In this document: positions 1,087 to 50,357 of the stretch, in pieces | Numbering within the stretch: position 1 is the stretch's first letter | Layout: each line of letters opens with the position of its first letter | Assembly: GCA_964016885.1 (NCBI GenBank) | Contig: OZ024742.1 | Span: 200,012,001-200,076,000, forward strand | Reading direction: 5' to 3' | From: Eledone cirrhosa | Taxonomy: Eukaryota | DNA: 64,000 nt | Translations under genes and position numbers: made by a program | The notes under the pieces: generated by a model | What the model saw: the letters and a program-made list of their open reading frames with translations, nothing else | Databases searched by the model: none | What the model was told of the DNA's origin: nothing

Positions 1087-1452
1087 TTTTATGTAAGAAG
1101 CCGTCTGATGTGTGCATGGCACTGGGTACGCGGAATCGCCTGGCCACTGTCGTCATTGAAATATGTATCACAGCATTACCAATAAAGGACTTTAACATCT
1201 GAAACTACTTCGCATTTTCTCATTTTAAACATACTCTATTATTCCTATGTGGAAGAAGCACATTGAGTGCTTGAATTGAATTGCATCAATATTTACCGTA
1301 CGTATATATATATATATATATATATATATGAATATAGACATAGAATATTCGAAAATATTCTGTATGTTTATAATAAACATTTTGAAGACCTAATCGCTAT
1401 AGAATAGAATACGTCACGTATTATAATTAGATTCTCGATAAAAGCAAGGGAA

Positions 1453-1495
1453 GTAATCTACGCGTTTCATTCTTATTAGAAATCTTCAGGACTAC
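1453..1495 (-). ncRNA. Minimal type I hammerhead ribozyme
   Basis: Reverse complement of 1727-1769. Confidence 0.85.
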
Positions 1496-1726
1496 ATATC
1501 CAGTGCTTTTATCGAGAATGACACAGCTAGAGACTTATAGAATACTTAGCTGTGTACGGGAACTGGTTTGAAAGAGCGGTTGCCGGTCCGGCAGAAATTA
1601 GAAATTGGAATAAATGCTCTGAAATAGCGATATATATGTGAATATAGACATAGAATATTCGAAAATATTCTGTATGTTTATAATAAACATTTTGAAGACC
1701 TAATCGCTGATAAAAGCACTGGATAT

Positions 1727-1769
1727 GTAGTCCTGAAGATTTCTAATAAGAATGAAACGCGTAGATTAC
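1727..1769 (+). ncRNA. Minimal type I hammerhead ribozyme
   Basis: gtagtc-CTGAAGA-t-TTCT-aata-AGAA-t-GAAA-CGCG-TA^gattac. Stem I is 6 bp, stem III is the palindrome ACGCGT, and the triplet is GUA. Confidence 0.85.
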
Positions 1770-1926
1770 TTCCCTTGCTTTTATCGAGAATCTAATTGTA
1801 ATACGTGACGTATTCTATTCTATAGCGATTAGGTCTTCAAAATGTTTATTATAAACATACAGAATATTTTCGAATATTCTATGTCTATATTCACATATAT
1901 ATCGCTATTTCAGAGCATTTATTCCA

Positions 1927-2005
<79 letters not shown>

Positions 2006-6890: not shown

Positions 6891-9800
6891 TCCTTGAATC
6901 TCAGTCATTGATGTTCGTTAACTGGAAAGTCCGTTGGATTGAATATCAAGCCACTACCTGCAGCCTCAGATATTCAGGACGTATCGGAGGGTTCTTGCTG
7001 TTCCAAGCAAGCATGCCTTTTGAAGCGTTCCAAAAAGCGTGAAGGGGCTGATTTTCTTTAACCATCCCTGGAAACTTTTGGAGATAGTCCCCAGTGCGCC
7101 TATGACAATCGGGATCACTTTGACTTCATGGCAGTTCCAAATCCTTTTCACCTCCCACTTTAGGTCCTGGTATCGGTTAATTTTCTCCCTCTCCTTCTCT
7201 TGCACTCTCGTGTCGAAAGGGCAGGCCACATCCACAATCAGGCACGATCTTTTTTCTTTGTCCACAACCACCAGGTCAGGTCTATTGTGTTCCAGTTTTT
7301 TGTCCGTCTGTATCCTAAAATCCCACAGCACCCTCACCTGATTGTTCTCCATCACCGCCTCTGGCCTATGCTCATACCATTTCTCAGAATGTGGTAGATT
7401 GTTTACTTTGCACAGGTGCCAGTGGATCACCCTGCCCATCACATCGTGTCTCCAGCCCTTATAGTGGGTCTGGGCTAGGTGTTTACACTCGGACACAATG
7501 TGAGCCACAGTCTCCTCTCTCTCTCCACAGATCCTGCACAGTGGGCTAGCCTCCTCCTTGTAGATATGGTGCTTCAACCACTTCGTTTTGAGGGCCTGCT
7601 CCTGCGCAGCCATTAGCATTCCTTCTGTAGCCTTTTTGAGGTCTCCTCTTCTCAACCAGTTCCATGTCTGTAGATCTCTAAATTCAGTTTTCTCAAAGAA
7701 GGTACTATGAAGGGATTTTCCCTTAAGGCTGCTCTTCCTCCTTGATGTTATTTCCTCCTTGGACATCCCCTGGCCTACTGTCCCCTCCTTCAGTACAGTT
7801 CTGAGCATTGGCTCCTTACTATAGGTCACGTATTTGTATAGGTTGTTTTTCTCCATCTGAACACAGTCCTCTATGCTGATAAGACCTCTTCCACCCTCAG
7901 ATCTCCTTAGGTAGAGTCTACCGACATCACTCCTCTTGTGGAACATGTTGTAGATAGTCAATAGCTTCCTAGTCTTCCTATCCATTTCTTTTTGTTCAGC
8001 AACATTCCATCTCAGAATTCCCGCACTGTACCTAATAATAGACACAGCTCGGGAATTTACTGCGCTTATGGCATTTCTGCTGTTCAGATGTGACTTCAAT
8101 ACGCTCCTTACTCTCCGAATGTATTCAGTTCTTAACAATTCCTTCATTTTTTTGTTCTTTATGCCATCAGCCTCCAGAACGCCCAAATACTTGTATCCTT
8201 CCTCAGAGTCAATTTCCTTTATCATCTCACCTGTTGGTATCTGGATCCCGTTACTTCTGCTCAACCTACCCCTCTTCATCACAATGACTCCACATTTACC
8301 AATACCAAACTGCATACATATATCACTGCTGAAAATACGGACAGTGTCAACAAGCACATCCAACTCCTTCTCACTTTTCCCGAAGAGCTTAAGATCGTCT
8401 ATGAAGAGGAGGTGATTGATGGTAAGCTCTCCCCTTCCCAACTTGTATCCTGCTCTCACTTTTCGCAGCATAATGGTCAAGGGCATCAGGGCAAGGACAA
8501 ACAACAGAGGGGACAGGCTATCTCCCTGGAAGATACCTCTCTTGATCTTCACGCTTCCCAAGGATACTCCAGTTGATGTCAACTCTGTCTCCCAGGACCC
8601 CATACTCCTGCCTAGCAACTGTCTGATGTTATCTGCCACCCTGAAGATCTCCAGGCTTTTGGTGATCCAGGAATGAGGCACCATGTCAAATGCCTTTCTG
8701 TAGTCTATCCATCCCATGGCAAGATCAGTGTGTCTCCTCCTGCAATTCCCCATTACCATCTTATCAATAAGCAACTGGTCCTTTGTACCACGTGACTTCT
8801 TTCGGCATCCTTTCTGTTCGTCCGGTAACAAGTTGTTTGTGTGGAGGTGATGGTAGATTTCCTCAGACACAATGCTCGTCAACAGTTTCCACATTACGGG
8901 CAGACATGTGATAGGTCTATAGTTGGTAACATCATTACCCTTGATTCGGTCTTTCATTATCAGAACTGTGGTACCTTTTGTCAACCACTCTGGCACCTCA
9001 CCCGACACCAAGCAGTCATTGAACATGGCCGTCAGCTTCGGGTGGAGGGATGTTAAATGTTTAATCCAATACCCCTGCACACCATGTGGGCCTGGTGATT
9101 TCCAGTTGGTTAGTTTTTTGGCTTGCCCCTTAAGAGTTTCAACTGTGATACTCAAATAAGTCTGTTGTTGTGCCTGCTCACCGATCTCCCTCTGTACTGT
9201 CTCAATCCACCCTGCCTGGGCATTGTGTCTAACATCCTGCTCCCATATTCCTATCCAGAATGTTTTAGTTTGTTCCGCCCCAGGGATCAAGTCGTTGCCT
9301 CTTTCTTTCCCCTCAAGCTGTCCAAACAGCATCTTCTGGTTGTTGTCGAACATGCGGTTCTGTTTATACTGACTGACTCTGTTCTCGTATCGCCTGATTT
9401 TTGCACTCTTTGCTACAATGCGTTGCTTCAATTCCTCTATGATAATATTTAGCTTTTTACTCCTAGTTTTGTATTTTATTTCCAGTCTATTTTTAGTGCC
9501 TATGTTTTTTAGTGTCCCATTCAGTAGTGACTCAAGCTTTCCTATGTCATTTCTCATTTCCCCGATTTGCCCACTCAGTCGCTTCTTCCACCACGGCTCT
9601 GCTCTTTCTTGTCTGTTGTTTCCTCTCGCTTTTATACCAAGTAGTTTCCTCACCGTATTTGCTGTTGCTTTGAGGATATTGTTGCACTGGTGAAGGCTCC
9701 TCGCCTCAAGGTATGGGATGACTTTGTTTACCTTAGCTGTTGTTTCTTTTAACTTTTTCCTGTCTACAAATCTTAGGTTCATAGGTCTCCCACTATCATT

Positions 9801-10780
9801 GTTCAATTCATCTACCACTAAATTTAGGATGTCAACCGAATCTTGTCCTAGCCCGTCAGCATTCATCTCCTCAGTGGCCGTATCTCTGTTCCAGGTATTA
9901 TTTATCTCAGTATTCAGATCATTGTCTGCTTCGGGTGGTTCCTCCGTTCTCAGGACCTCCTCATCTTCATTTCCCACCGGCTCGCTTGTCTGGCATACTA
10001 CACCCGCCATCTCCAAGCCATTCTCTCTGCTCAGTTCCTCCAGTTCCAGCTCGCTTATCCACCCATTAGTTCTTATTACCCGAGCCTGCCCGGCCAATTT
10101 TTGTTCATCTAATTTAAATAAACCAATCTCGTTCCAGATGTTATGCATCCGTCTCCTGTAGCCCCTCTCCTTGGGGTTACTTTTCAGGTAGCATTGCATA
10201 ACAGTTCTATTCAATTCTTTCGTCCAGTTGGTTCTGGCCCCTTTCCTTCTTCTTCTTCCTCCAACATCAGCAGTATTTGGTTGACAGTCAGGTTCCTGCT
10301 GCTGAGCCAGGGGGGACCTGTTGGGTGAGAGTCTGTCACATGACGTTCTAGTCTCCATTTCACCGTTATTCGAACTGTTTATGTTCGATATTTAAACACT
10401 CTTATCGAGGATTGGCGAATGTATAGTTACATAGCCATCTGTGGATCCGCCATCCCACTTGGCCCTTGTGTGGCATTATCGCCACGCTGTATACGAACAC
10501 ACATAAACAAACAAACACACAGGCAGAAAGGGCCCCAAAAATGAATAAGCATAAGTTTCATTGTAATGTAGTGTTCGAATGTCTGACTTAGTTTTTGTTT
10601 TTTAAGTTTTACTTTTTCCCCCCTCTTCTCTGTCCGTCCGCCTGCTTCTCTCTTCATTCTTATTTTCTTTACGTTTTGGGGGTTTCTTTTTTTGTTTTTG
10701 TTTTTCTCTGTTTGTTTTTCTCGTTTTTGCTGTTGTTGCTGTGCTGCTTTGGTTTTGTTGTTTGTTTTTTCTTTTTTCTT
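6871..10780 (-). mobile_element. Probably full-length R4/Dong-clade non-LTR retrotransposon in (TAA)n
   Basis: Single long ORF, a 3' UTR of about 75 nt ending GATTCAAGG(AAT)n, and about 420 nt of leader back to the upstream TAA run. Confidence 0.85.
6966..10358 (-). CDS. RT + CCHC + restriction-like endonuclease polyprotein (R4/Dong clade), 1130 aa, uninterrupted
   Basis: RT motifs: WKSPGPHG, NYRPITCL, WIDYRKAFD, GIFQGDSLSP, HLLFIDD, YKYLG. Zinc knuckle CRICGEREETVAHIVSEC, then RHD and the PD-(D/E)xK endonuclease NRPDLVV..IVDVACP..EKINRY. Confidence 0.95.
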   Translation of the reverse strand: METRTSCDRLSPNRSPLAQQQEPDCQPNTADVGGRRRRKGARTNWTKELNRTVMQCYLKSNPKERGYRRRMHNIWNEIGLFKLDEQKLAGQARVIRTNGWISELELEELSRENGLEMAGVVCQTSEPVGNEDEEVLRTEEPPEADNDLNTEINNTWNRDTATEEMNADGLGQDSVDILNLVVDELNNDSGRPMNLRFVDRKKLKETTAKVNKVIPYLEARSLHQCNNILKATANTVRKLLGIKARGNNRQERAEPWWKKRLSGQIGEMRNDIGKLESLLNGTLKNIGTKNRLEIKYKTRSKKLNIIIEELKQRIVAKSAKIRRYENRVSQYKQNRMFDNNQKMLFGQLEGKERGNDLIPGAEQTKTFWIGIWEQDVRHNAQAGWIETVQREIGEQAQQQTYLSITVETLKGQAKKLTNWKSPGPHGVQGYWIKHLTSLHPKLTAMFNDCLVSGEVPEWLTKGTTVLIMKDRIKGNDVTNYRPITCLPVMWKLLTSIVSEEIYHHLHTNNLLPDEQKGCRKKSRGTKDQLLIDKMVMGNCRRRHTDLAMGWIDYRKAFDMVPHSWITKSLEIFRVADNIRQLLGRSMGSWETELTSTGVSLGSVKIKRGIFQGDSLSPLLFVLALMPLTIMLRKVRAGYKLGRGELTINHLLFIDDLKLFGKSEKELDVLVDTVRIFSSDICMQFGIGKCGVIVMKRGRLSRSNGIQIPTGEMIKEIDSEEGYKYLGVLEADGIKNKKMKELLRTEYIRRVRSVLKSHLNSRNAISAVNSRAVSIIRYSAGILRWNVAEQKEMDRKTRKLLTIYNMFHKRSDVGRLYLRRSEGGRGLISIEDCVQMEKNNLYKYVTYSKEPMLRTVLKEGTVGQGMSKEEITSRRKSSLKGKSLHSTFFEKTEFRDLQTWNWLRRGDLKKATEGMLMAAQEQALKTKWLKHHIYKEEASPLCRICGEREETVAHIVSECKHLAQTHYKGWRHDVMGRVIHWHLCKVNNLPHSEKWYEHRPEAVMENNQVRVLWDFRIQTDKKLEHNRPDLVVVDKEKRSCLIVDVACPFDTRVQEKEREKINRYQDLKWEVKRIWNCHEVKVIPIVIGALGTISKSFQGWLKKISPFTLFGTLQKACLLGTARTLRYVLNI

Positions 10781-46385: not shown

Positions 46386-49300
46386 TTACAGACACATACT
46401 CAGAGAAGGCCCATTCATTCGGGCCATACTTGCTTCTCTCACCCATCTTTCAACAAAATGCTGGGAAGAGAGCACTTCCCTCTCTACCCTGATTTTCCTT
46501 TTCAAATGAAATTTGAAAAAGTTAATCAGGGCATCACCGAAGAGGTAAGTGCTCGTCTTCAGCCCTTTCAAACGTGTCCACCATACTATCTCTTTCGCCA
46601 TGGCCACCAGACAGATAAAAACTGCCTGCCCTTCCAGGCTAAAGGAAGGGGGCGGGGCAATCCTCACGATGGACTCAGCTGATAGCTGGATCCGTCCTAC
46701 ACGTGACAGCAGGTGTTCGACATAAACCCACAAGTCAGCAATGCTCGGACACTGGACGAGTGCGTGCAGGACGGTTTCGTCGCCCTGCGCGCATCTCGGA
46801 CATGCCCGGCTGACGGCACCTCCATGCCTGTAGAGTTTATCCCGAACTGGCAAAGCTCCTCGGTAGCACTGCCAGGCCAGGGATTTCTGGAAGTTGTCCA
46901 TAGGCCCCGGCCCGAAAGTCCTTCCGAAGAGATTGGCTAGTTGATTTTCGTCGACGCCTAGAGTTTCTCCAAGTACGTCGTCGCTCTTCCCCTCCACTAA
47001 TCCCCTATAGAACGCCAAGGTGGAGTTTCCACCGATCACATTGCCCGATTGGTCGAGGGCTGTAAGCGCCTGAAGACATTCCAGTCTCCAAGCGCTCCCT
47101 CTCGGTCTTCGCTTGACCCAGGACTGCAGCTCCGTCAAGGAGACGAGCTGGGGAAAAACGTATCTTGCAAACGGCGACCACACCTGATCACCGTCGAGGA
47201 AGAGGTGGAGATGTCGTAGCCTGAGCGCGTGTCTGCGCATCATCAGCCACGGCATGCCCAGCCCTCCACGTAGCGGGTGTTGACAGCAGATGGACCGCCT
47301 GACCATCGGAGCGCGTCCCTTCCACAAGAAGCGAAAGAGCAAACGCTCCAGCGCAGTCAGGCGGAGCTTAGGACAAGGTACGACGGTCAGGCGGTAGTAG
47401 ATGACGGATGCGATGTACGCATTTGCCACCTCCGCTCGACCTTTCCGCTTCCTCTCGGCCCATTTCTGGGTGAGAGAAGCCACCCTGCTCGTCACCTCGT
47501 CCCAGTTTTTGTCCGTCTGGAGGTCTGGACCGAACCAGACCCCTAGCAATTTAACCGGTCCGTCCGTCCAGCGCCCGACGACGCTGTTGGACGGCATGGA
47601 CCTGCCTCTCCAGGTGCCGAGCTTCAGGCCCACTGACTTTTCCTGGTTGATCATTGCTCCTGTCACCGCTTCGTATTCTCTTAGTGTAGTGCCGATCGCC
47701 TCGATGTGTTTGGCGTTCGACACCACTACGGTGACATCGTCGGCATATGCTGACACGGATCTTCCGCATCCTAGTTCGCGCGGGACCCCTCTCAACGTCT
47801 CCAGTTTGTGCAGTAATGGCTCGAGAGTCAATACGTACAATAGGGACGAGAGGGGACATCCTTGGCGGACCGAGCGCATGATGTTGAACGGTTCCGAAAG
47901 GTGACCGTTCACTCTCACTACAGAGCAGATGTCGCTGTGCATGGCAGCGATCCAGCCTCTGAAGACGGGCCCAAAGCCAGCCGCCCTCAGGACTGCCGTT
48001 AGGTAACGATGGTCGACCCTATCGAAGGCTTTCGACTGATCTAAATTGATCAAAGACCCACCCGTGCCAGGTTCCCTAGCTACCCTCTCTACGATGTATC
48101 GCATGAGGTGGAGGTTGTCGTGGATGGATCTGTCGGGAATGGCGCATGTCTGTGCCTCTCCCACCAGACCACCAACGACAAGCGCCAACCTCTGTGCTAG
48201 CACCTTGGCCAAAATCTTGAACTCTGTGTTTAGCAGAGTTATGGGCCTAAAATTATCTATGTTATCCCCCTTGTTCGGATCCTTTCTCAGCAGCGCCACC
48301 GCTCCTCGGCTCACAGAGCTGGGAATTCTCCCGTTCTGTTGCCAGTTGCAGTAGACGTCCGCCAAGAGGCCTCCGAACAAGTTTGGCATTTGTACGTAAA
48401 GTTCATAGGGCAGACCATCCAAACCAGGCGATTTACCCCTTGTGCAACTAGTCATTGCATCCCGTACTTCAGCGGTTGTTATCGGCTTTTCGCAACACTC
48501 CGCCTCAGTGGCCGAAAGCCGCGGCAGTCCGTCGAGGTAGACACTAAAGTCCATCCCTCGATCCGGCCCGCCACTGCCCCCGAACAGTTGAGCGAAGTGT
48601 CGCTGAAAAGCTTCACACATTTGCCCGGGATCGAGTAGCATGCGCCCGTCGTGGTCCACCAAAGACCGGATCGTGGCTTTGTTGCCACGACGCGCCTCCG
48701 CCACTCGGGCCCATTGAACGGCTTTCGTCCCCTCGTGTCTGAGAGCACGCACCCTAGCTCTGACAACGCAGCCTTCGTGCTTTGCATTGAAGAATTGGTC
48801 AAGGGCCAATTTCGCCGCAAGTACGTCGGTCGCGATGCCTTTGCTAAGCGCCTCATCTAATTTTCTAACTAATTCTCCCTCTGCTCTATTTTTCTCTATT
48901 GCTAAAGTCTTACTAAACCTAATGGACTCTATTCTAATTGCTCTTTTCAGAGCAAACCACCACTTGTTGTTGACGATGGCCCCCGTCAACGCCCGCTTAA
49001 CTAGTTCGCTAATCCGGTCTCTGTAGGCCTTGCGCGCTGGTAAGGACGCGTTTAGCTTCCAGTAGCCGGGTCCTCGTCTATGAAGCCTATCTAAGTCAAG
49101 CACACAGATCACGAATGTGTGGTCCGTGTAGCTGACTATCTTGAATTGTGGACAGCCTATGCTAGACCTATCTATTTCCCTACAAAATACTCTATCTAGA
49201 TATGATCTGGATGACCCTATGCGATTTGTCCAAGTCCACATTGGTACATTCGGGAAATCCATTCGGTACCTGTCAGACAGTTCAAAACGTCTGAGCAGGT

Positions 49301-49799
49301 TGGTGAGACTCTTGCACCCTCCGTCCCTATCCACTAATCCCACACAATCCCAGCGTGCATCTAAGATCCCGTTCCAGTCGCCCACTAACACTAAAGAGCG
49401 GGATGTTCCAAGAAAGGTCTCCAGACGCCGGAAGAAATCAGGCCGCCCTGCTCCTGTCGGGGCATAGACGGCCACTAACCTGAAAGCTTGCCCGTCTCCG
49501 CTGGTCACGTCCAGCACCACCAACTTACCTTCTGGGTCCAGGAAGATGGCCCGTATGGCAAGATCCAAACCTCTCCGAAAAAGCATAGCAACTCCGCCCC
49601 CCGATCCCGGACGGCTGGGAGATGCGTACACATCGTAGCCGCCGAAGATCGGTGCGAAAGCCTGTGCTTCGGAGATTCTGGTCTCGCTGATGGCCACTAC
49701 ATCTATGTTTAGTGACCTGAGGTCGTTGAGCAGGTGGCCCTGCTTCCATGACGACCCCAAGCCACGCGCATTTATGCTGCCTATTCTGAGTGAGGTCAT
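46386..49799 (-). CDS. LINE ORF2: APE endonuclease + RT + zf-RVT (Tx1/L1 clade), 1137 aa
   Basis: APE motifs: SINARGL, ISET, VYAP, GDWN, SYLDR, TDH. Also WKLN. RT motifs: KSPGLDG, FRPITLLN, DQSKAFD, QGCPLS, AYADD, LLGV. C-terminal CPRC..ETVLHALVQC. Confidence 0.95.
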   Translation of the reverse strand: MTSLRIGSINARGLGSSWKQGHLLNDLRSLNIDVVAISETRISEAQAFAPIFGGYDVYASPSRPGSGGGVAMLFRRGLDLAIRAIFLDPEGKLVVLDVTSGDGQAFRLVAVYAPTGAGRPDFFRRLETFLGTSRSLVLVGDWNGILDARWDCVGLVDRDGGCKSLTNLLRRFELSDRYRMDFPNVPMWTWTNRIGSSRSYLDRVFCREIDRSSIGCPQFKIVSYTDHTFVICVLDLDRLHRRGPGYWKLNASLPARKAYRDRISELVKRALTGAIVNNKWWFALKRAIRIESIRFSKTLAIEKNRAEGELVRKLDEALSKGIATDVLAAKLALDQFFNAKHEGCVVRARVRALRHEGTKAVQWARVAEARRGNKATIRSLVDHDGRMLLDPGQMCEAFQRHFAQLFGGSGGPDRGMDFSVYLDGLPRLSATEAECCEKPITTAEVRDAMTSCTRGKSPGLDGLPYELYVQMPNLFGGLLADVYCNWQQNGRIPSSVSRGAVALLRKDPNKGDNIDNFRPITLLNTEFKILAKVLAQRLALVVGGLVGEAQTCAIPDRSIHDNLHLMRYIVERVAREPGTGGSLINLDQSKAFDRVDHRYLTAVLRAAGFGPVFRGWIAAMHSDICSVVRVNGHLSEPFNIMRSVRQGCPLSSLLYVLTLEPLLHKLETLRGVPRELGCGRSVSAYADDVTVVVSNAKHIEAIGTTLREYEAVTGAMINQEKSVGLKLGTWRGRSMPSNSVVGRWTDGPVKLLGVWFGPDLQTDKNWDEVTSRVASLTQKWAERKRKGRAEVANAYIASVIYYRLTVVPCPKLRLTALERLLFRFLWKGRAPMVRRSICCQHPLRGGLGMPWLMMRRHALRLRHLHLFLDGDQVWSPFARYVFPQLVSLTELQSWVKRRPRGSAWRLECLQALTALDQSGNVIGGNSTLAFYRGLVEGKSDDVLGETLGVDENQLANLFGRTFGPGPMDNFQKSLAWQCYRGALPVRDKLYRHGGAVSRACPRCAQGDETVLHALVQCPSIADLWVYVEHLLSRVGRIQLSAESIVRIAPPPSFSLEGQAVFICLVAMAKEIVWWTRLKGLKTSTYLFGDALINFFKFHLKRKIRVEREVLSSQHFVERWVREASMARMNGPSLSMCL

Positions 49800-49833
49800 G
49801 TTGAAAAGGAGTGGAAAAGATGGGAAAGACCAC

Positions 49834-50357
49834 TTACCTTACTTCTCGTAGGGGAAGGACGGCTTTTCCATCCTTTTCACTGCTTGTGGCCTCCTCAGGA
49901 AGGATGTCCTTATAAATCCTCCTGGAGAGTGCTTGTCGGAAGTCTCCGACGTCTTTGGGGAATTTTTGTTTTAGTGTCATGTACGTTTTCTGTGTGATGC
50001 GAGTGATTTGTATGTGTGGAGGTGGTGTGAATTTTGGGGTTGTTGTGTAGTCTTTTTCTGTGATGCTGGTGTTGTGTTGGATGTAGTGTAATAATTGCTT
50101 GTTGTTCAAATTTAATGCTGTGTAGTGTGTATCGTTTTGGTTGTTTTGTTTTGTTTGCGTTTGTTGTGGGTTTGTTTCTGTTTCGCATTTTGGTGACTTT
50201 TGTGGTGTAGGTGATGGTGGTGCTGGGGATAATGATGGTGATGGTGTTGGTGTTTGGGTTGATGGGGTTGGTGATGCCGGTGTGGATGGTGGCATATCTG
50301 TCCTAACTTTTTTGTTTCTTAGTTTATTTGTTTCCCTCTGTATTTTGTTTTTGTATT
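49834..50357 (-). CDS. Probable C-terminal part of Tx1 ORF1 (start lost)
   Basis: Open frame ending 35 nt upstream of the ORF2 ATG. It is P/T/S-rich, and its apparent start codon lies in the adjacent Dong fragment. Confidence 0.55.

What the first reader, a model, noticed from the sequence alone, without database searches (positions are those of the whole stretch)
1329..1930. 310-bp hammerhead unit copied past its own junction on both strands: signature of a circular or multimeric RNA template
Seen: 1.2 tandem units with period 310, then an inverted arm (1709-1930) that also crosses the unit end/start junction. There is one HHR per unit, no ORF, and (TA)n on both sides. The size falls in the range described for metazoan retrozyme monomers. 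Inference: reverse transcription went round a circular RNA or along a multimer, then switched strand.
Basis: partly seen in the sequence, partly recalled or inferred. Interest (0 to 1): 0.75.

Follow-up and report, generated by a model that had tools for sequence, protein, structure and literature searches.

The report
Hammerhead retrozyme with Penelope insertion footprint
This is one copy of a 310-base non-coding repeat with a hammerhead-ribozyme motif that sits as two head-to-head arms between TA microsatellites; it is likely a known kind of protein-free jumping element (an animal "retrozyme") pasted in by a Penelope-type reverse transcriptase, and its predicted self-cutting and circular RNA are untested.

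Summary
Window 1330-1708 holds 1.22 tandem units of 310 nt. Window 1709-1933 is an inverted arm that also crosses the unit junction. (TA)n lies on both sides and there is no ORF.

It is not a one-off. The 38-nt ribozyme core occurs 1,566 times in this 3.0-Gb genome. In 24 of 24 evaluable two-armed loci the architecture is the same:
- The outer ends are fixed at two sites 36-41 nt apart, and each locus has exactly one end of each type.
- The inner junction falls at any phase, usually with 1-10 nt of microhomology.
- The strand carrying the hammerhead always points outward.

These are the published hallmarks of Penelope-like element (PLE) insertion: 5' truncation, an inverted 5'-truncated copy, a 30-40-bp "tail" at one end, and (TA)n bias. 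Here they are applied to an ORF-less unit. I therefore file it as a new member of the animal non-LTR retrozymes.

"Switched strand" is not: the two arms are separately primed cDNAs.

Circle versus multimer template is unresolved. Array-wide private variants favour a single-unit (circular) template. The hammerhead is weak by Rfam but is supported by covariation in two sister families. No RNA data were available.

The parts
1303..1329 (.). Left (TA)13.5 flank, the presumed target microsatellite
   Evidence: TRF. Nearly all outer ends of the family abut (TA)n.
1330..1708 (-). Left arm: 1.22 units (q1-310 plus q1-69). The ribozyme-sense strand is the - strand. The outer (left) end is the 'no-tail' start site A.
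   Evidence: BLAST map of the unit on the locus; end sequence ...CTATATTC|(AT)n.
1439..1504 (-). Hammerhead motif of the left arm; predicted cleavage between 1459 and 1458 on the - strand
   Evidence: Rfam HH9 17 bits, E 0.79. Motif read from the sequence. Covariation in sister families.
1708..1709 (.). Head-to-head inner junction (5' ends of both arms), blunt: q69 joined to q184
1709..1933 (+). Right arm: sense positions 127-310 plus the tail (sense 1-41). 5'-truncated inside the distal stem. The outer (right) end is start site B.
1727..1769 (+). Hammerhead core of the right arm: helix I GUAGUC/GAUUAC, CUGAAGA, helix II (U.U)UUC/GAA, GAAA, A15.1-U16.1 closing the palindrome ACGCGU. Predicted cleavage after A1763.
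   Evidence: Read from the sequence. All core nucleotides are unchanged in every haplotype that occurs in 4 or more locus records.
1842..1880 (+). Two conserved hairpins just upstream of the start sites: H1 at 1842-1858 and H2 at 1861-1880. Candidate recognition module for the reverse transcriptase. The same hairpins lie on the - strand at 1342-1380 and 1652-1690.
   Evidence: Alignment of families A, B and C. Compensatory changes: H2 in 2 of 8 pairs, H1 in 1 of 6.
1893..1933 (+). 'Tail': 41 nt between start sites A and B (ACATATATATCGCTATTTCAGAGCATTTATTCCAAT...), present at this end only
   Evidence: The tail sequence and its end point are conserved in families B and C.
1930..2003 (.). Right (TA)37 flank
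   Evidence: TRF.

Best explanation
The locus is one insertion of a 310-nt, ORF-less, hammerhead-bearing repeat family whose copies all carry the insertion footprint of Penelope-like elements, so it was likely made by a Penelope-type reverse transcriptase/endonuclease acting in trans.

Inferred steps:
1. The enzyme cuts both strands of a (TA)n tract.
2. Each 3'-OH primes cDNA synthesis on ribozyme-sense RNA at one of two fixed internal start sites. Site A lies at the unit's own AUAUAUAU run. Site B lies 36-41 nt further 3', after ...CCAAU.
3. Each cDNA runs for a variable distance, here 1.22 and 0.73 units and elsewhere up to about 27 units, over a covalently continuous template. That template was most likely a 310-nt circular RNA copied round and round.
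4. The two cDNA 3' ends are joined head-to-head by microhomology.

What is shown: the architecture, the fixed ends, the one-tail rule, the (TA)n target, the homogeneity of arrays, and the presence of coding PLEs in the genome.

What is inferred: the enzyme partner, ribozyme cleavage, RNA circularisation, and the order of events.
For: (1) Family and architecture. 31 loci were mapped. All two-armed ones read + block then - block, with outer ends at q270-276 or q1-4 and inner ends at any phase. Among the 100 pattern matches listed on C1, every locus with both strands has the '-' core left of the '+' core.

(2) One-tail rule. 24 of 24 evaluable family-A loci have one end with the tail and one without, and no hidden tail lies in 400 nt of flank. 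Sister family B gives 7 of 9 and C gives 7 of 8, so 38 of 41 in all.

(3) Inner junctions. Of 27 analysed, 17 show 1-10 nt overlap, 2 are blunt and 8 show filler.

(4) Match to published PLE features.
- Craig et al. 2021, PMC8557442, passages read: 5' truncation, partial tandems, an inverted 5'-truncated copy, a 30-40-bp tail often at one end, and (TA)n bias.
- Frangieh et al. 2024, PMC11167929, main text read: a purified PLE cleaves and extends both strands and starts at two adjacent internal sites that define the tail.

(5) Coding PLEs are abundant here. 150 of 150 scored GIY-YIG hits pass the Pfam cut-off, from 10,596 first-look candidates. ORFs of 515-938 aa carry RVT_1 plus a C-terminal GIY-YIG domain.

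(6) Independent insertions. Flanks share only scattered repeat fragments.

(7) Template sense and continuity. The strand whose 3' end is fixed is the ribozyme strand. Of 54 inner ends, one lies at q131 and none at q129-130, where the predicted cleavage site lies.

(8) Single-unit bottleneck. Among 269 non-redundant full units in 27 loci, mean differences are 1.42 within an arm, 1.01 between opposite arms and 9.66 between loci. There are 22 distinct commonest units among 27 loci. Locus-wide alternative alleles occur at 34 columns.

(9) Ribozyme and 3' module are conserved in structure across families A, B and C, which are 66-77% identical.
- 85.2% of cells are paired against 35-46% when partners are slid.
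- 15 pairs have changes on both sides against 3-7 when slid.
- Helix II has 2 of 4 compensatory pairs.
- Family B carries U3/A8 where A and C carry C3/G8.
Against: No autonomous partner was identified. The unit shows no similarity to the PLE-bearing loci that I fetched (30 loci compared), which is a tiny sample of more than 10,000 candidates.

The hammerhead fails Rfam thresholds (17 bits). It has a U.U at the base of helix II and a one-pair helix III. Cleavage is untested.

No RNA run was listed, so transcription, cleavage and circles are unsupported by data here.

Against a monomer circle:
- Some arrays show higher-order patterns, such as period 10 units at C5:55.9 Mb and period 6 at C14. 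Some mix 310- and 314-nt units (C9). These need a multimeric template, template switching or later unequal exchange.
- In only 10 of 18 loci is the commonest unit identical on both arms.
- Frangieh et al. report that unprocessed multi-copy RNA is the main substrate in vitro.

The covariation rests on only three lineages.

Loci were those ranked best by the genome search, so they are biased towards young, long arrays.
Confidence: 0.55

Rival explanations
1. Same PLE-type double target-primed insertion, but the template was a linear, uncleaved multimeric read-through transcript of a donor array. No circle is involved and the ribozyme plays no part in mobilisation.
For: Frangieh et al. [quoted passage not shown] Donor arrays of 19-28 units exist. 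Higher-order unit patterns and mixed unit lengths occur in some arrays.
Against: Private variants are array-wide and shared by both arms. Means are 1.0-1.4 differences within a locus against 9.7 between loci, and 22 distinct commonest units occur in 27 loci. Copying a multimer passes on a new mutation in one unit only, so this pattern needs an added homogenising process that also works across inverted arms. The ribozyme is conserved with compensatory changes across three families, which argues that it matters to the element.
Confidence: 0.3
2. The unit is only the terminal repeat (pLTR) of a coding PLE, and these loci are ordinary 5'-truncated copies of that PLE rather than a separate non-autonomous family.
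For: Such cases are common: PLE pLTRs carry hammerheads, and earlier AI notes of this scan describe several. A PLE family in this genome (L096, L097, L100) has a hammerhead with the same peculiarities and two alternative 3' ends about 55 nt apart.
Against: Arrays of up to about 27 units consist of the 310-nt unit alone, and no ORF adjoins any of the 31 loci. The tandem unit has no frame over 59 codons. No similarity to the fetched PLE loci was found.
Confidence: 0.07
3. One reading: one reverse-transcription run round a circle or multimer that then switched to copying its own cDNA (snap-back), giving the inverted arm.
For: The inverted arm is 99% complementary to the direct arm. A 16-bp internal stem lies near the switch point.
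Against: Snap-back would copy back to the same outer end, yet 24 of 24 loci have unlike ends, one with the tail and one without. In 12 of those 24 loci the tail-bearing arm is the longer one. Junction phases on the two arms are unrelated.
Confidence: 0.04
4. A plain satellite that spread and formed palindromes by DNA-level processes (unequal exchange, fold-back replication), or an assembly artefact.
For: Tandem arrays with some higher-order structure. No listed contig bridges the window's own junction 1708/1709.
Against: There are dozens of dispersed loci with unrelated flanks, fixed ends at two sites, (TA)n targets, and asymmetric junctions with microhomology. At least 15 different +/- joints appear in short-read contigs from runs X1-X3.
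Confidence: 0.04

Closest known systems
Animal non-LTR retrozymes (Cervera & de la Pena 2020, PMC7229834, passages read; Li, Clavereau & Pollet 2026, bioRxiv 10.64898/2026.07.22.740005, Results and Discussion read)
   Same: ORF-less tandem units of about 170-400 nt with low GC and one type-I hammerhead per unit. Helix III is a short palindrome and a U.U sits at the base of helix II, both described for axolotl variants. PLEs occur in the same genome.
   Different: Expression, self-cleavage and circles are untested here. These two papers do not describe the insertion footprint: 'inverted' occurs 0 times in the first, and 'tail' occurs 0 times in the second, where 'inverted' appears only in a reference title. 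The second explains arrays by local amplification and unequal crossover. Here arrays look born multimeric, on two arms.
Penelope-like element insertions (Craig et al. 2021, PMC8557442, passages read; Frangieh et al. 2024, PMC11167929, main text read)
   Same: 5' truncation, partial tandems, an inverted 5'-truncated copy at the 5' end, a 30-40-bp tail at one end, (TA)n target bias, two adjacent internal start sites downstream of a hammerhead, and extension from both target strands.
   Different: There is no RT/EN ORF; the repeated unit is only 310 nt, and arms reach tens of units. Site A coincides with an AUAUAUAU run that could pair with the (TA)n primer, whereas the Anolis element starts at a site without homology to the target.
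L1 twin priming (recalled from memory; no paper read here)
   Same: Two primings from the two strands of one target give an inverted, 5'-truncated structure joined by microhomology.
   Different: In L1 the two arms are different, non-overlapping parts of one linear RNA. Here both arms start at the same 3' module and overlap in sequence.
Newt/salamander satellite 2 hammerhead repeats (as summarised in PMC7229834, passage read)
   Same: About 330-nt tandem units. The hammerhead has a one-pair helix III closed by a palindromic tetraloop and is active as a dimer.
   Different: No sequence relation was tested. The host here appears different; an earlier AI note on a look-alike element in another genome calls it cephalopod, which I did not check.

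Membership tests
Hammerhead ribozyme, type I | Conserved core CUGANGA ... GAAA, an A15.1-U16.1 pair, H at position 17, and three helices with helix I open | tested here: met
   CUGAAGA, GAAA, A-U and GUA|G were read at 1727-1769. The core is unchanged in every haplotype found in 4 or more locus records. Variation falls at N7, loop 2, position 10.1 (U to A, which creates a pair) and wobble swaps in helix I.
Hammerhead ribozyme, type I | Score at or above the Rfam gathering threshold | tested here: not met
   HH9 scores 17 bits against a threshold of 52, E 0.79. RF00163 is not reported at E<=1. Nothing reaches gathering thresholds. Other hammerheads in this genome do pass RF00163, at 37.8 bits.
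Hammerhead ribozyme, type I | Helices kept by compensatory change in relatives | tested here: met
   Helix II has 2 of 4 pairs changed on both sides (UA/CG; AU/UA/GC). The distal stem has 7 of 19. The core pair is C3-G8 in families A and C and U3-A8 in B. Only three lineages were compared.
Hammerhead ribozyme, type I | Self-cleavage | not testable with these tools
   Needs in vitro transcription of monomer and dimer constructs.
Animal non-LTR retrozyme | Tandem units of about 170-400 nt, low GC, no ORF, no LTR | tested here: met
   310 nt; GC 33.9%; longest frame 59 codons; arrays of 1 to about 27 units.
Animal non-LTR retrozyme | Expressed as linear and circular RNA of unit length | not testable with these tools
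Animal non-LTR retrozyme | Dispersed copies showing retrotransposition | tested here: met
   At least 31 loci on many contigs with unrelated flanks, and 1,566 exact cores.
PLE-mobilised element (insertion footprint) | Fixed 3' ends with variable 5' truncation | tested here: met
   Outer ends lie at q270-276 or q1-4. Inner ends range over q3-q308.
PLE-mobilised element (insertion footprint) | Inverted 5'-truncated copy adjoining the 5' end | tested here: met
   27 head-to-head junctions were analysed.
PLE-mobilised element (insertion footprint) | 30-40-bp tail, often at one end only | tested here: met
   The tail is 36-41 nt. It is at exactly one end in 24 of 24 (A), 7 of 9 (B) and 7 of 8 (C) loci.
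PLE-mobilised element (insertion footprint) | Microsatellite target bias | tested here: met
   Outer ends abut (TA)n. The window itself has 56 (TA)>=10 tracts covering 4.4% of its bases, so the background is high but far below what is observed.
PLE-mobilised element (insertion footprint) | Coding PLE (RT plus GIY-YIG) in the same genome | tested here: met
PLE-mobilised element (insertion footprint) | Sequence homology of the unit to the pLTR or 3' end of a specific autonomous PLE | tested here: inconclusive
   No match in the 30 fetched loci, out of more than 10,000 GIY-YIG candidates.
Plant LTR retrozyme | Type III hammerheads in LTRs, with PBS and PPT, 600-1000 nt | tested here: not met
   The unit is 310 nt with a type-I motif and no terminal repeats. 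PBS and PPT were not searched for.

The most novel reading that the evidence does not exclude
Each insertion uses both of the Penelope enzyme's two start sites, one per target strand (38 of 41 two-armed loci across three families). This would mean that one RT-endonuclease dimer loaded on a single template primes both cDNAs 36-41 nt apart. Because every array carries its own unit sequence on both arms, that template would be a single 310-nt circular RNA copied by rolling-circle reverse transcription. Retrozyme tandem arrays would then be born multimeric in one event, rather than grown later by unequal crossing-over.
Probability: 0.3. Interest if true: 0.65.

Novelty: new member of a known kind. 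Interest (0 to 1): 0.4.

Why it matters
Animal retrozymes have been linked to Penelope-like elements mainly by co-occurrence and pLTR similarity, and their tandem arrays have been put down to local amplification. This family gives a clean structural record of the insertion reaction itself: two fixed start sites, a strict one-tail rule, head-to-head arms, and arrays that are uniform within a locus but differ between loci. If the coupling of the two start sites and the single-unit bottleneck hold up, three questions become testable. How does a PLE enzyme handle both target strands? Are circular RNAs real templates for reverse transcription in animals? How are hammerhead satellites born? As an object, however, it is a further example of a known class.

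Tried and rejected
Rfam: scans gave no hammerhead above threshold.

RNA evidence: no RNA holder was listed for the locus, so nothing can be said on expression.

Read check of the window's own junction (1708/1709):
- Three read-laying runs failed because the machine was busy.
- The one that ran listed no contig bridging the junction in X1-X3. RAD-seq reads of X21 run on into the normal tandem continuation.
- So neither support nor refutation was obtained.

Copy number from reads: summed contig depths of about 1e5 are not copy numbers. A single 52-nt contig over the ribozyme has depth 8,636 against about 4 for the unique flank. That is the same order as the 1,566 assembled cores.

Autonomous partner: BLAST of the unit against 18 GIY-YIG/PLE loci and 12 other hammerhead loci found only sister retrozyme-like units lying nearby, not a PLE pLTR. 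Two PLE families that I inspected have unrelated 3' regions.

Run-off at the ribozyme cleavage site: only 1 of 54 inner ends lies at q131. A small cluster lies at q144-154 (6 of 54), which I did not judge robust.

Fold-back symmetry at junctions: rejected, because only 3 of 27 junctions are near-symmetric (L004, L008, L075).

Other rejections: hidden tails beyond the (TA)n at 'no-tail' ends, none found in 400 nt; segmental duplication of loci.

Earlier-findings look-ups by place and by sequence returned nothing.

Full report
**What is there.** Window 1330-1639 is a 310-nt unit, and 1640-1708 repeats its first 69 nt. Window 1709-1933 is the reverse complement of unit positions 184-1 followed by 310-270, so both arms run across the unit's end/start junction. 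The pairs are 99% alike. (TA)13.5 precedes the element and (TA)37 follows it. No frame exceeds 71 codons in the locus or 59 in a tandem of the unit, and GC is 33.9%. Each arm holds one hammerhead-like motif, on the - strand in the left arm and the + strand in the right arm. Rfam scores it only 17 bits (HH9, E 0.79), and nothing in the window reaches a gathering score.

**It is a family.** The window lies in a 3.0-Gb assembly (C3:200,012,001-200,076,000). A search with the unit returned 114 matches in about 33 places at 91-100% identity. The exact 38-nt ribozyme core occurs 695 + 871 times, against 0 for the reversed control. I fetched and mapped 31 loci, several of them extended to 10 kb. Flanks of different loci share only scattered fragments of other repeats, so these are separate insertions.

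**Common architecture.** Almost every locus reads as a tandem array in one orientation followed by a tandem array in the other.
- Outer ends are fixed. They fall either at unit position 1-4, directly after the unit's own ATATATAT run (site A), or at 270-276, after ...CCAAT (site B). Both abut (TA)n.
- The 36-41 nt between the two sites behaves as an optional tail.
- Inner ends fall from position 3 to 308 (54 ends; Kolmogorov-Smirnov test against uniform, p = 0.066).
- Of 27 inner junctions, 17 show 1-10 nt of overlap, 2 are blunt and 8 show apparent filler. At least three of the fillers are only variant unit sequence.
- The strand that carries the ribozyme always has its 3' end outside. Among the listed C1 pattern matches, every two-stranded locus has '-' cores to the left of '+' cores.
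- Arms range from 0.3 to about 27 units.

**One-tail rule.** All 24 family-A loci with two arms and both ends readable have exactly one end with the tail and one without. No tail is hidden within 400 nt beyond the (TA)n at the 'no-tail' ends. If the ends were independent and equally likely, this outcome would have a probability of about 6e-8 (my arithmetic). The tail lies on the left in 10 loci and on the right in 14. In 12 of the 24 the tail-bearing arm is the longer one.

Seven loci were not evaluable:
- single-armed: L034, C3:8.72 Mb;
- a 47-nt inverted stub in unique DNA: L046;
- an end at q93: L049;
- at a contig edge or not fully fetched: C140, L048, L050.

**Sister families.** Next to PLE copies I met two diverged relatives of about 314 nt, 66-77% identical to the unit. 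Family B gave 3,098 first-look candidates and family C gave 2,720. They share the tail sequence and its end point, two hairpins just upstream of site A, the ribozyme position and the long stem enclosing it. They have the same head-to-head layout. The one-tail rule holds in 7 of 9 (B) and 7 of 8 (C) two-armed loci, which makes 38 of 41 overall.

**Is the ribozyme real?**
- The motif has every core nucleotide: CUGAAGA, GAAA, A15.1-U16.1 and GUA at the cleavage site. It has a 6-bp helix I extended by a 16-bp stem, a weak helix II (a U.U mismatch, then UUC/GAA) and a helix III that is just the palindrome ACGCGU.
- Both oddities are described for axolotl retrozyme hammerheads, which work as dimers (PMC7229834, passage).
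- Among family-A copies, the haplotypes present in 4 or more locus records vary only at N7, loop 2, position 10.1 (U to A, which creates a pair), wobble swaps in helix I and one distal position. Core changes occur only in haplotypes seen in 4 copies or fewer.
- On an alignment of 5 A, 5 B and 4 C copies, 85.2% of cells pair, against 35-46% with partners slid by 1-3 columns. Fifteen pairs have changes on both sides, against 3-7 when slid. These include 7 of 19 pairs in the distal stem, 2 of 4 in helix II, 2 of 8 in hairpin H2 and 1 of 6 in hairpin H1.
- Family B has U3/A8 where A and C have C3/G8, and one diverged B unit has C3/G8. C3 and G8 pair in the active core, and double mutants partly restore activity (PMC11167929).
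- Only three lineages underlie these counts. Helix I was poorly aligned between families. Cleavage itself is untested.

**Comparison with the literature.**
- Craig et al. (PMC8557442, passages) list the marks of PLE insertions: strong 5' truncation, partial tandems, often an inverted 5'-truncated copy at the 5' end, a 30-40-bp tail often at one end only, and (TA)n bias in some clades.
- Frangieh et al. (PMC11167929, main text) showed for an Anolis PLE that the protein cleaves and extends both target strands. Reverse transcription starts at two adjacent internal sites downstream of the hammerhead, and those sites delimit the tail. Ribozyme cleavage is not needed in vitro.
- Here site A lies 129 nt and site B about 165-170 nt downstream of the predicted cleavage site, a comparable layout.
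- Coding PLEs abound in this genome. 150 of 150 scored GIY-YIG hits pass the cut-off, out of 10,596 candidates. ORFs carry RVT_1 plus a C-terminal GIY-YIG domain.
- I found no PLE whose ends resemble the unit among the 30 loci compared, so the partner is unnamed.
- Cervera & de la Pena 2020 and Li et al. 2026 define and survey animal non-LTR retrozymes. The word 'inverted' does not occur in the first. In the second, 'tail' does not occur and 'inverted' appears only in a reference title. Li et al. attribute arrays to local amplification and unequal crossover.
- A search for retrozyme + Penelope + head-to-head + TPRT found no paper that holds 'head-to-head'.

**Mechanism.** The fixed outer ends on the ribozyme-sense strand, the variable inner ends and the microhomology fit target-primed reverse transcription from both strands of one cut, with the two cDNA 3' ends then annealing and copying each other. 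A single cDNA that snapped back would end twice at the same site, and the one-tail rule contradicts that. Fold-back of DNA would give symmetric junctions, but only 3 of 27 are near-symmetric. Because arms cross the unit junction, and the ribozyme site, seamlessly many times, the template was covalently continuous over many unit lengths.

**Circle or multimer?** Among 269 non-redundant full units in 27 loci, units differ by 1.42 on average within an arm, 1.01 between the two arms of a locus and 9.66 between loci. Within the 310-nt subfamily the between-locus figure is 5.93. The 27 loci have 22 different commonest units, and 34 alignment columns carry locus-wide alternative alleles.

A mutation in one unit of a donor array can become array-wide in a daughter only if a single unit is the template, as in a monomer circle copied round and round, or if arrays are later homogenised, including across inverted arms. 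That favours a circle.

Several points weigh against it:
- Some arrays show higher-order patterns (period 10 units at C5:55.9 Mb, period 6 at C14) or mixed 310/314-nt units.
- In 8 of 18 loci the commonest units of the two arms differ.
- The in vitro work points to unprocessed multi-copy RNA as the substrate.

I put the circle at roughly 55-60% of the PLE-type readings.

**What could not be done.** No RNA run was listed. Short-read contigs of one sample (X1-X3) contain at least 15 different +/- joints of this repeat, but no listed contig bridges the window's own junction. Earlier AI notes of this scan describe a 472-nt hammerhead retrozyme in the same genome and similar elements elsewhere. They agree with this filing but are not independent evidence.

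**Verdict.** This is a new member of a known kind, an animal non-LTR retrozyme with a full PLE insertion footprint. It has two regularities worth following up: the one-tail rule, and array-wide private variants.

Noticed in passing
L051-L062 (e.g. G000:C3:10277077-10277121): A second hammerhead family passes Rfam RF00163 (up to 37.8 bits; 46 matches from 74 scored candidates). Its core is CCTGATGAGTCCTAAATAGGACGAAAC. Copies end about 55-60 nt downstream at (TA)n, and some lie as inverted pairs.
   Followed up: partly
L101-L112 (family B) and L113-L126 (family C): Two older sister families of about 314 nt, 66-77% identical to the unit, with 3,098 and 2,720 first-look candidates. Most have arms of 1.5 units or less. 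Family B carries a U3/A8 core pair instead of C3/G8.
   Followed up: partly
L096:3200-4730, L097, L100 (- strand): A PLE family (ORF ending ...FIDKFKPKLNEQ) has, about 390 nt after its stop codon, a hammerhead with the same peculiarities as the unit: CUGAAGA, U.U at the base of helix II, and an A-U pair closing the palindromic tetraloop GUAC. Two alternative 3' ends lie about 55 nt apart. No further sequence similarity to the unit.
   Followed up: partly
L098:1850-4865: Two 551-aa PLE ORF fragments lie head-to-head and overlap in the middle. This is the same inverted architecture in a coding element.
   Followed up: no
G000:C5:55925759 onward (L081/L082); G000:C14:26717068 onward: Higher-order patterns of unit variants within arrays (period 10 units and period 6 units). 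They point to block duplication or multimeric templates.
   Followed up: no
L041:1731-1782; L075 right end: A 52-nt filler unrelated to the unit sits at one head-to-head junction. At C28:75.8 Mb the tail is followed by A18 before the (TA)n.
   Followed up: no
window 1088-1302: The 215 nt between two TA tracts just upstream of the element has summed short-read contig depths of 3e4-8e4, against about 4 for unique flank. It is therefore part of another abundant repeat.
   Followed up: no
window 6966-10391 (-) and 46386-49838 (-): Two long LINE-like ORFs. One is 1,141 aa with RVT_1. The other is 1,150 aa with Exo_endo_phos, RVT_1 and zf-RVT.
   Followed up: partly
window, whole: 56 tracts of (TA)>=10 cover 4.4% of the 64 kb, so this genome offers very many targets for TA-seeking elements.
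   Followed up: no
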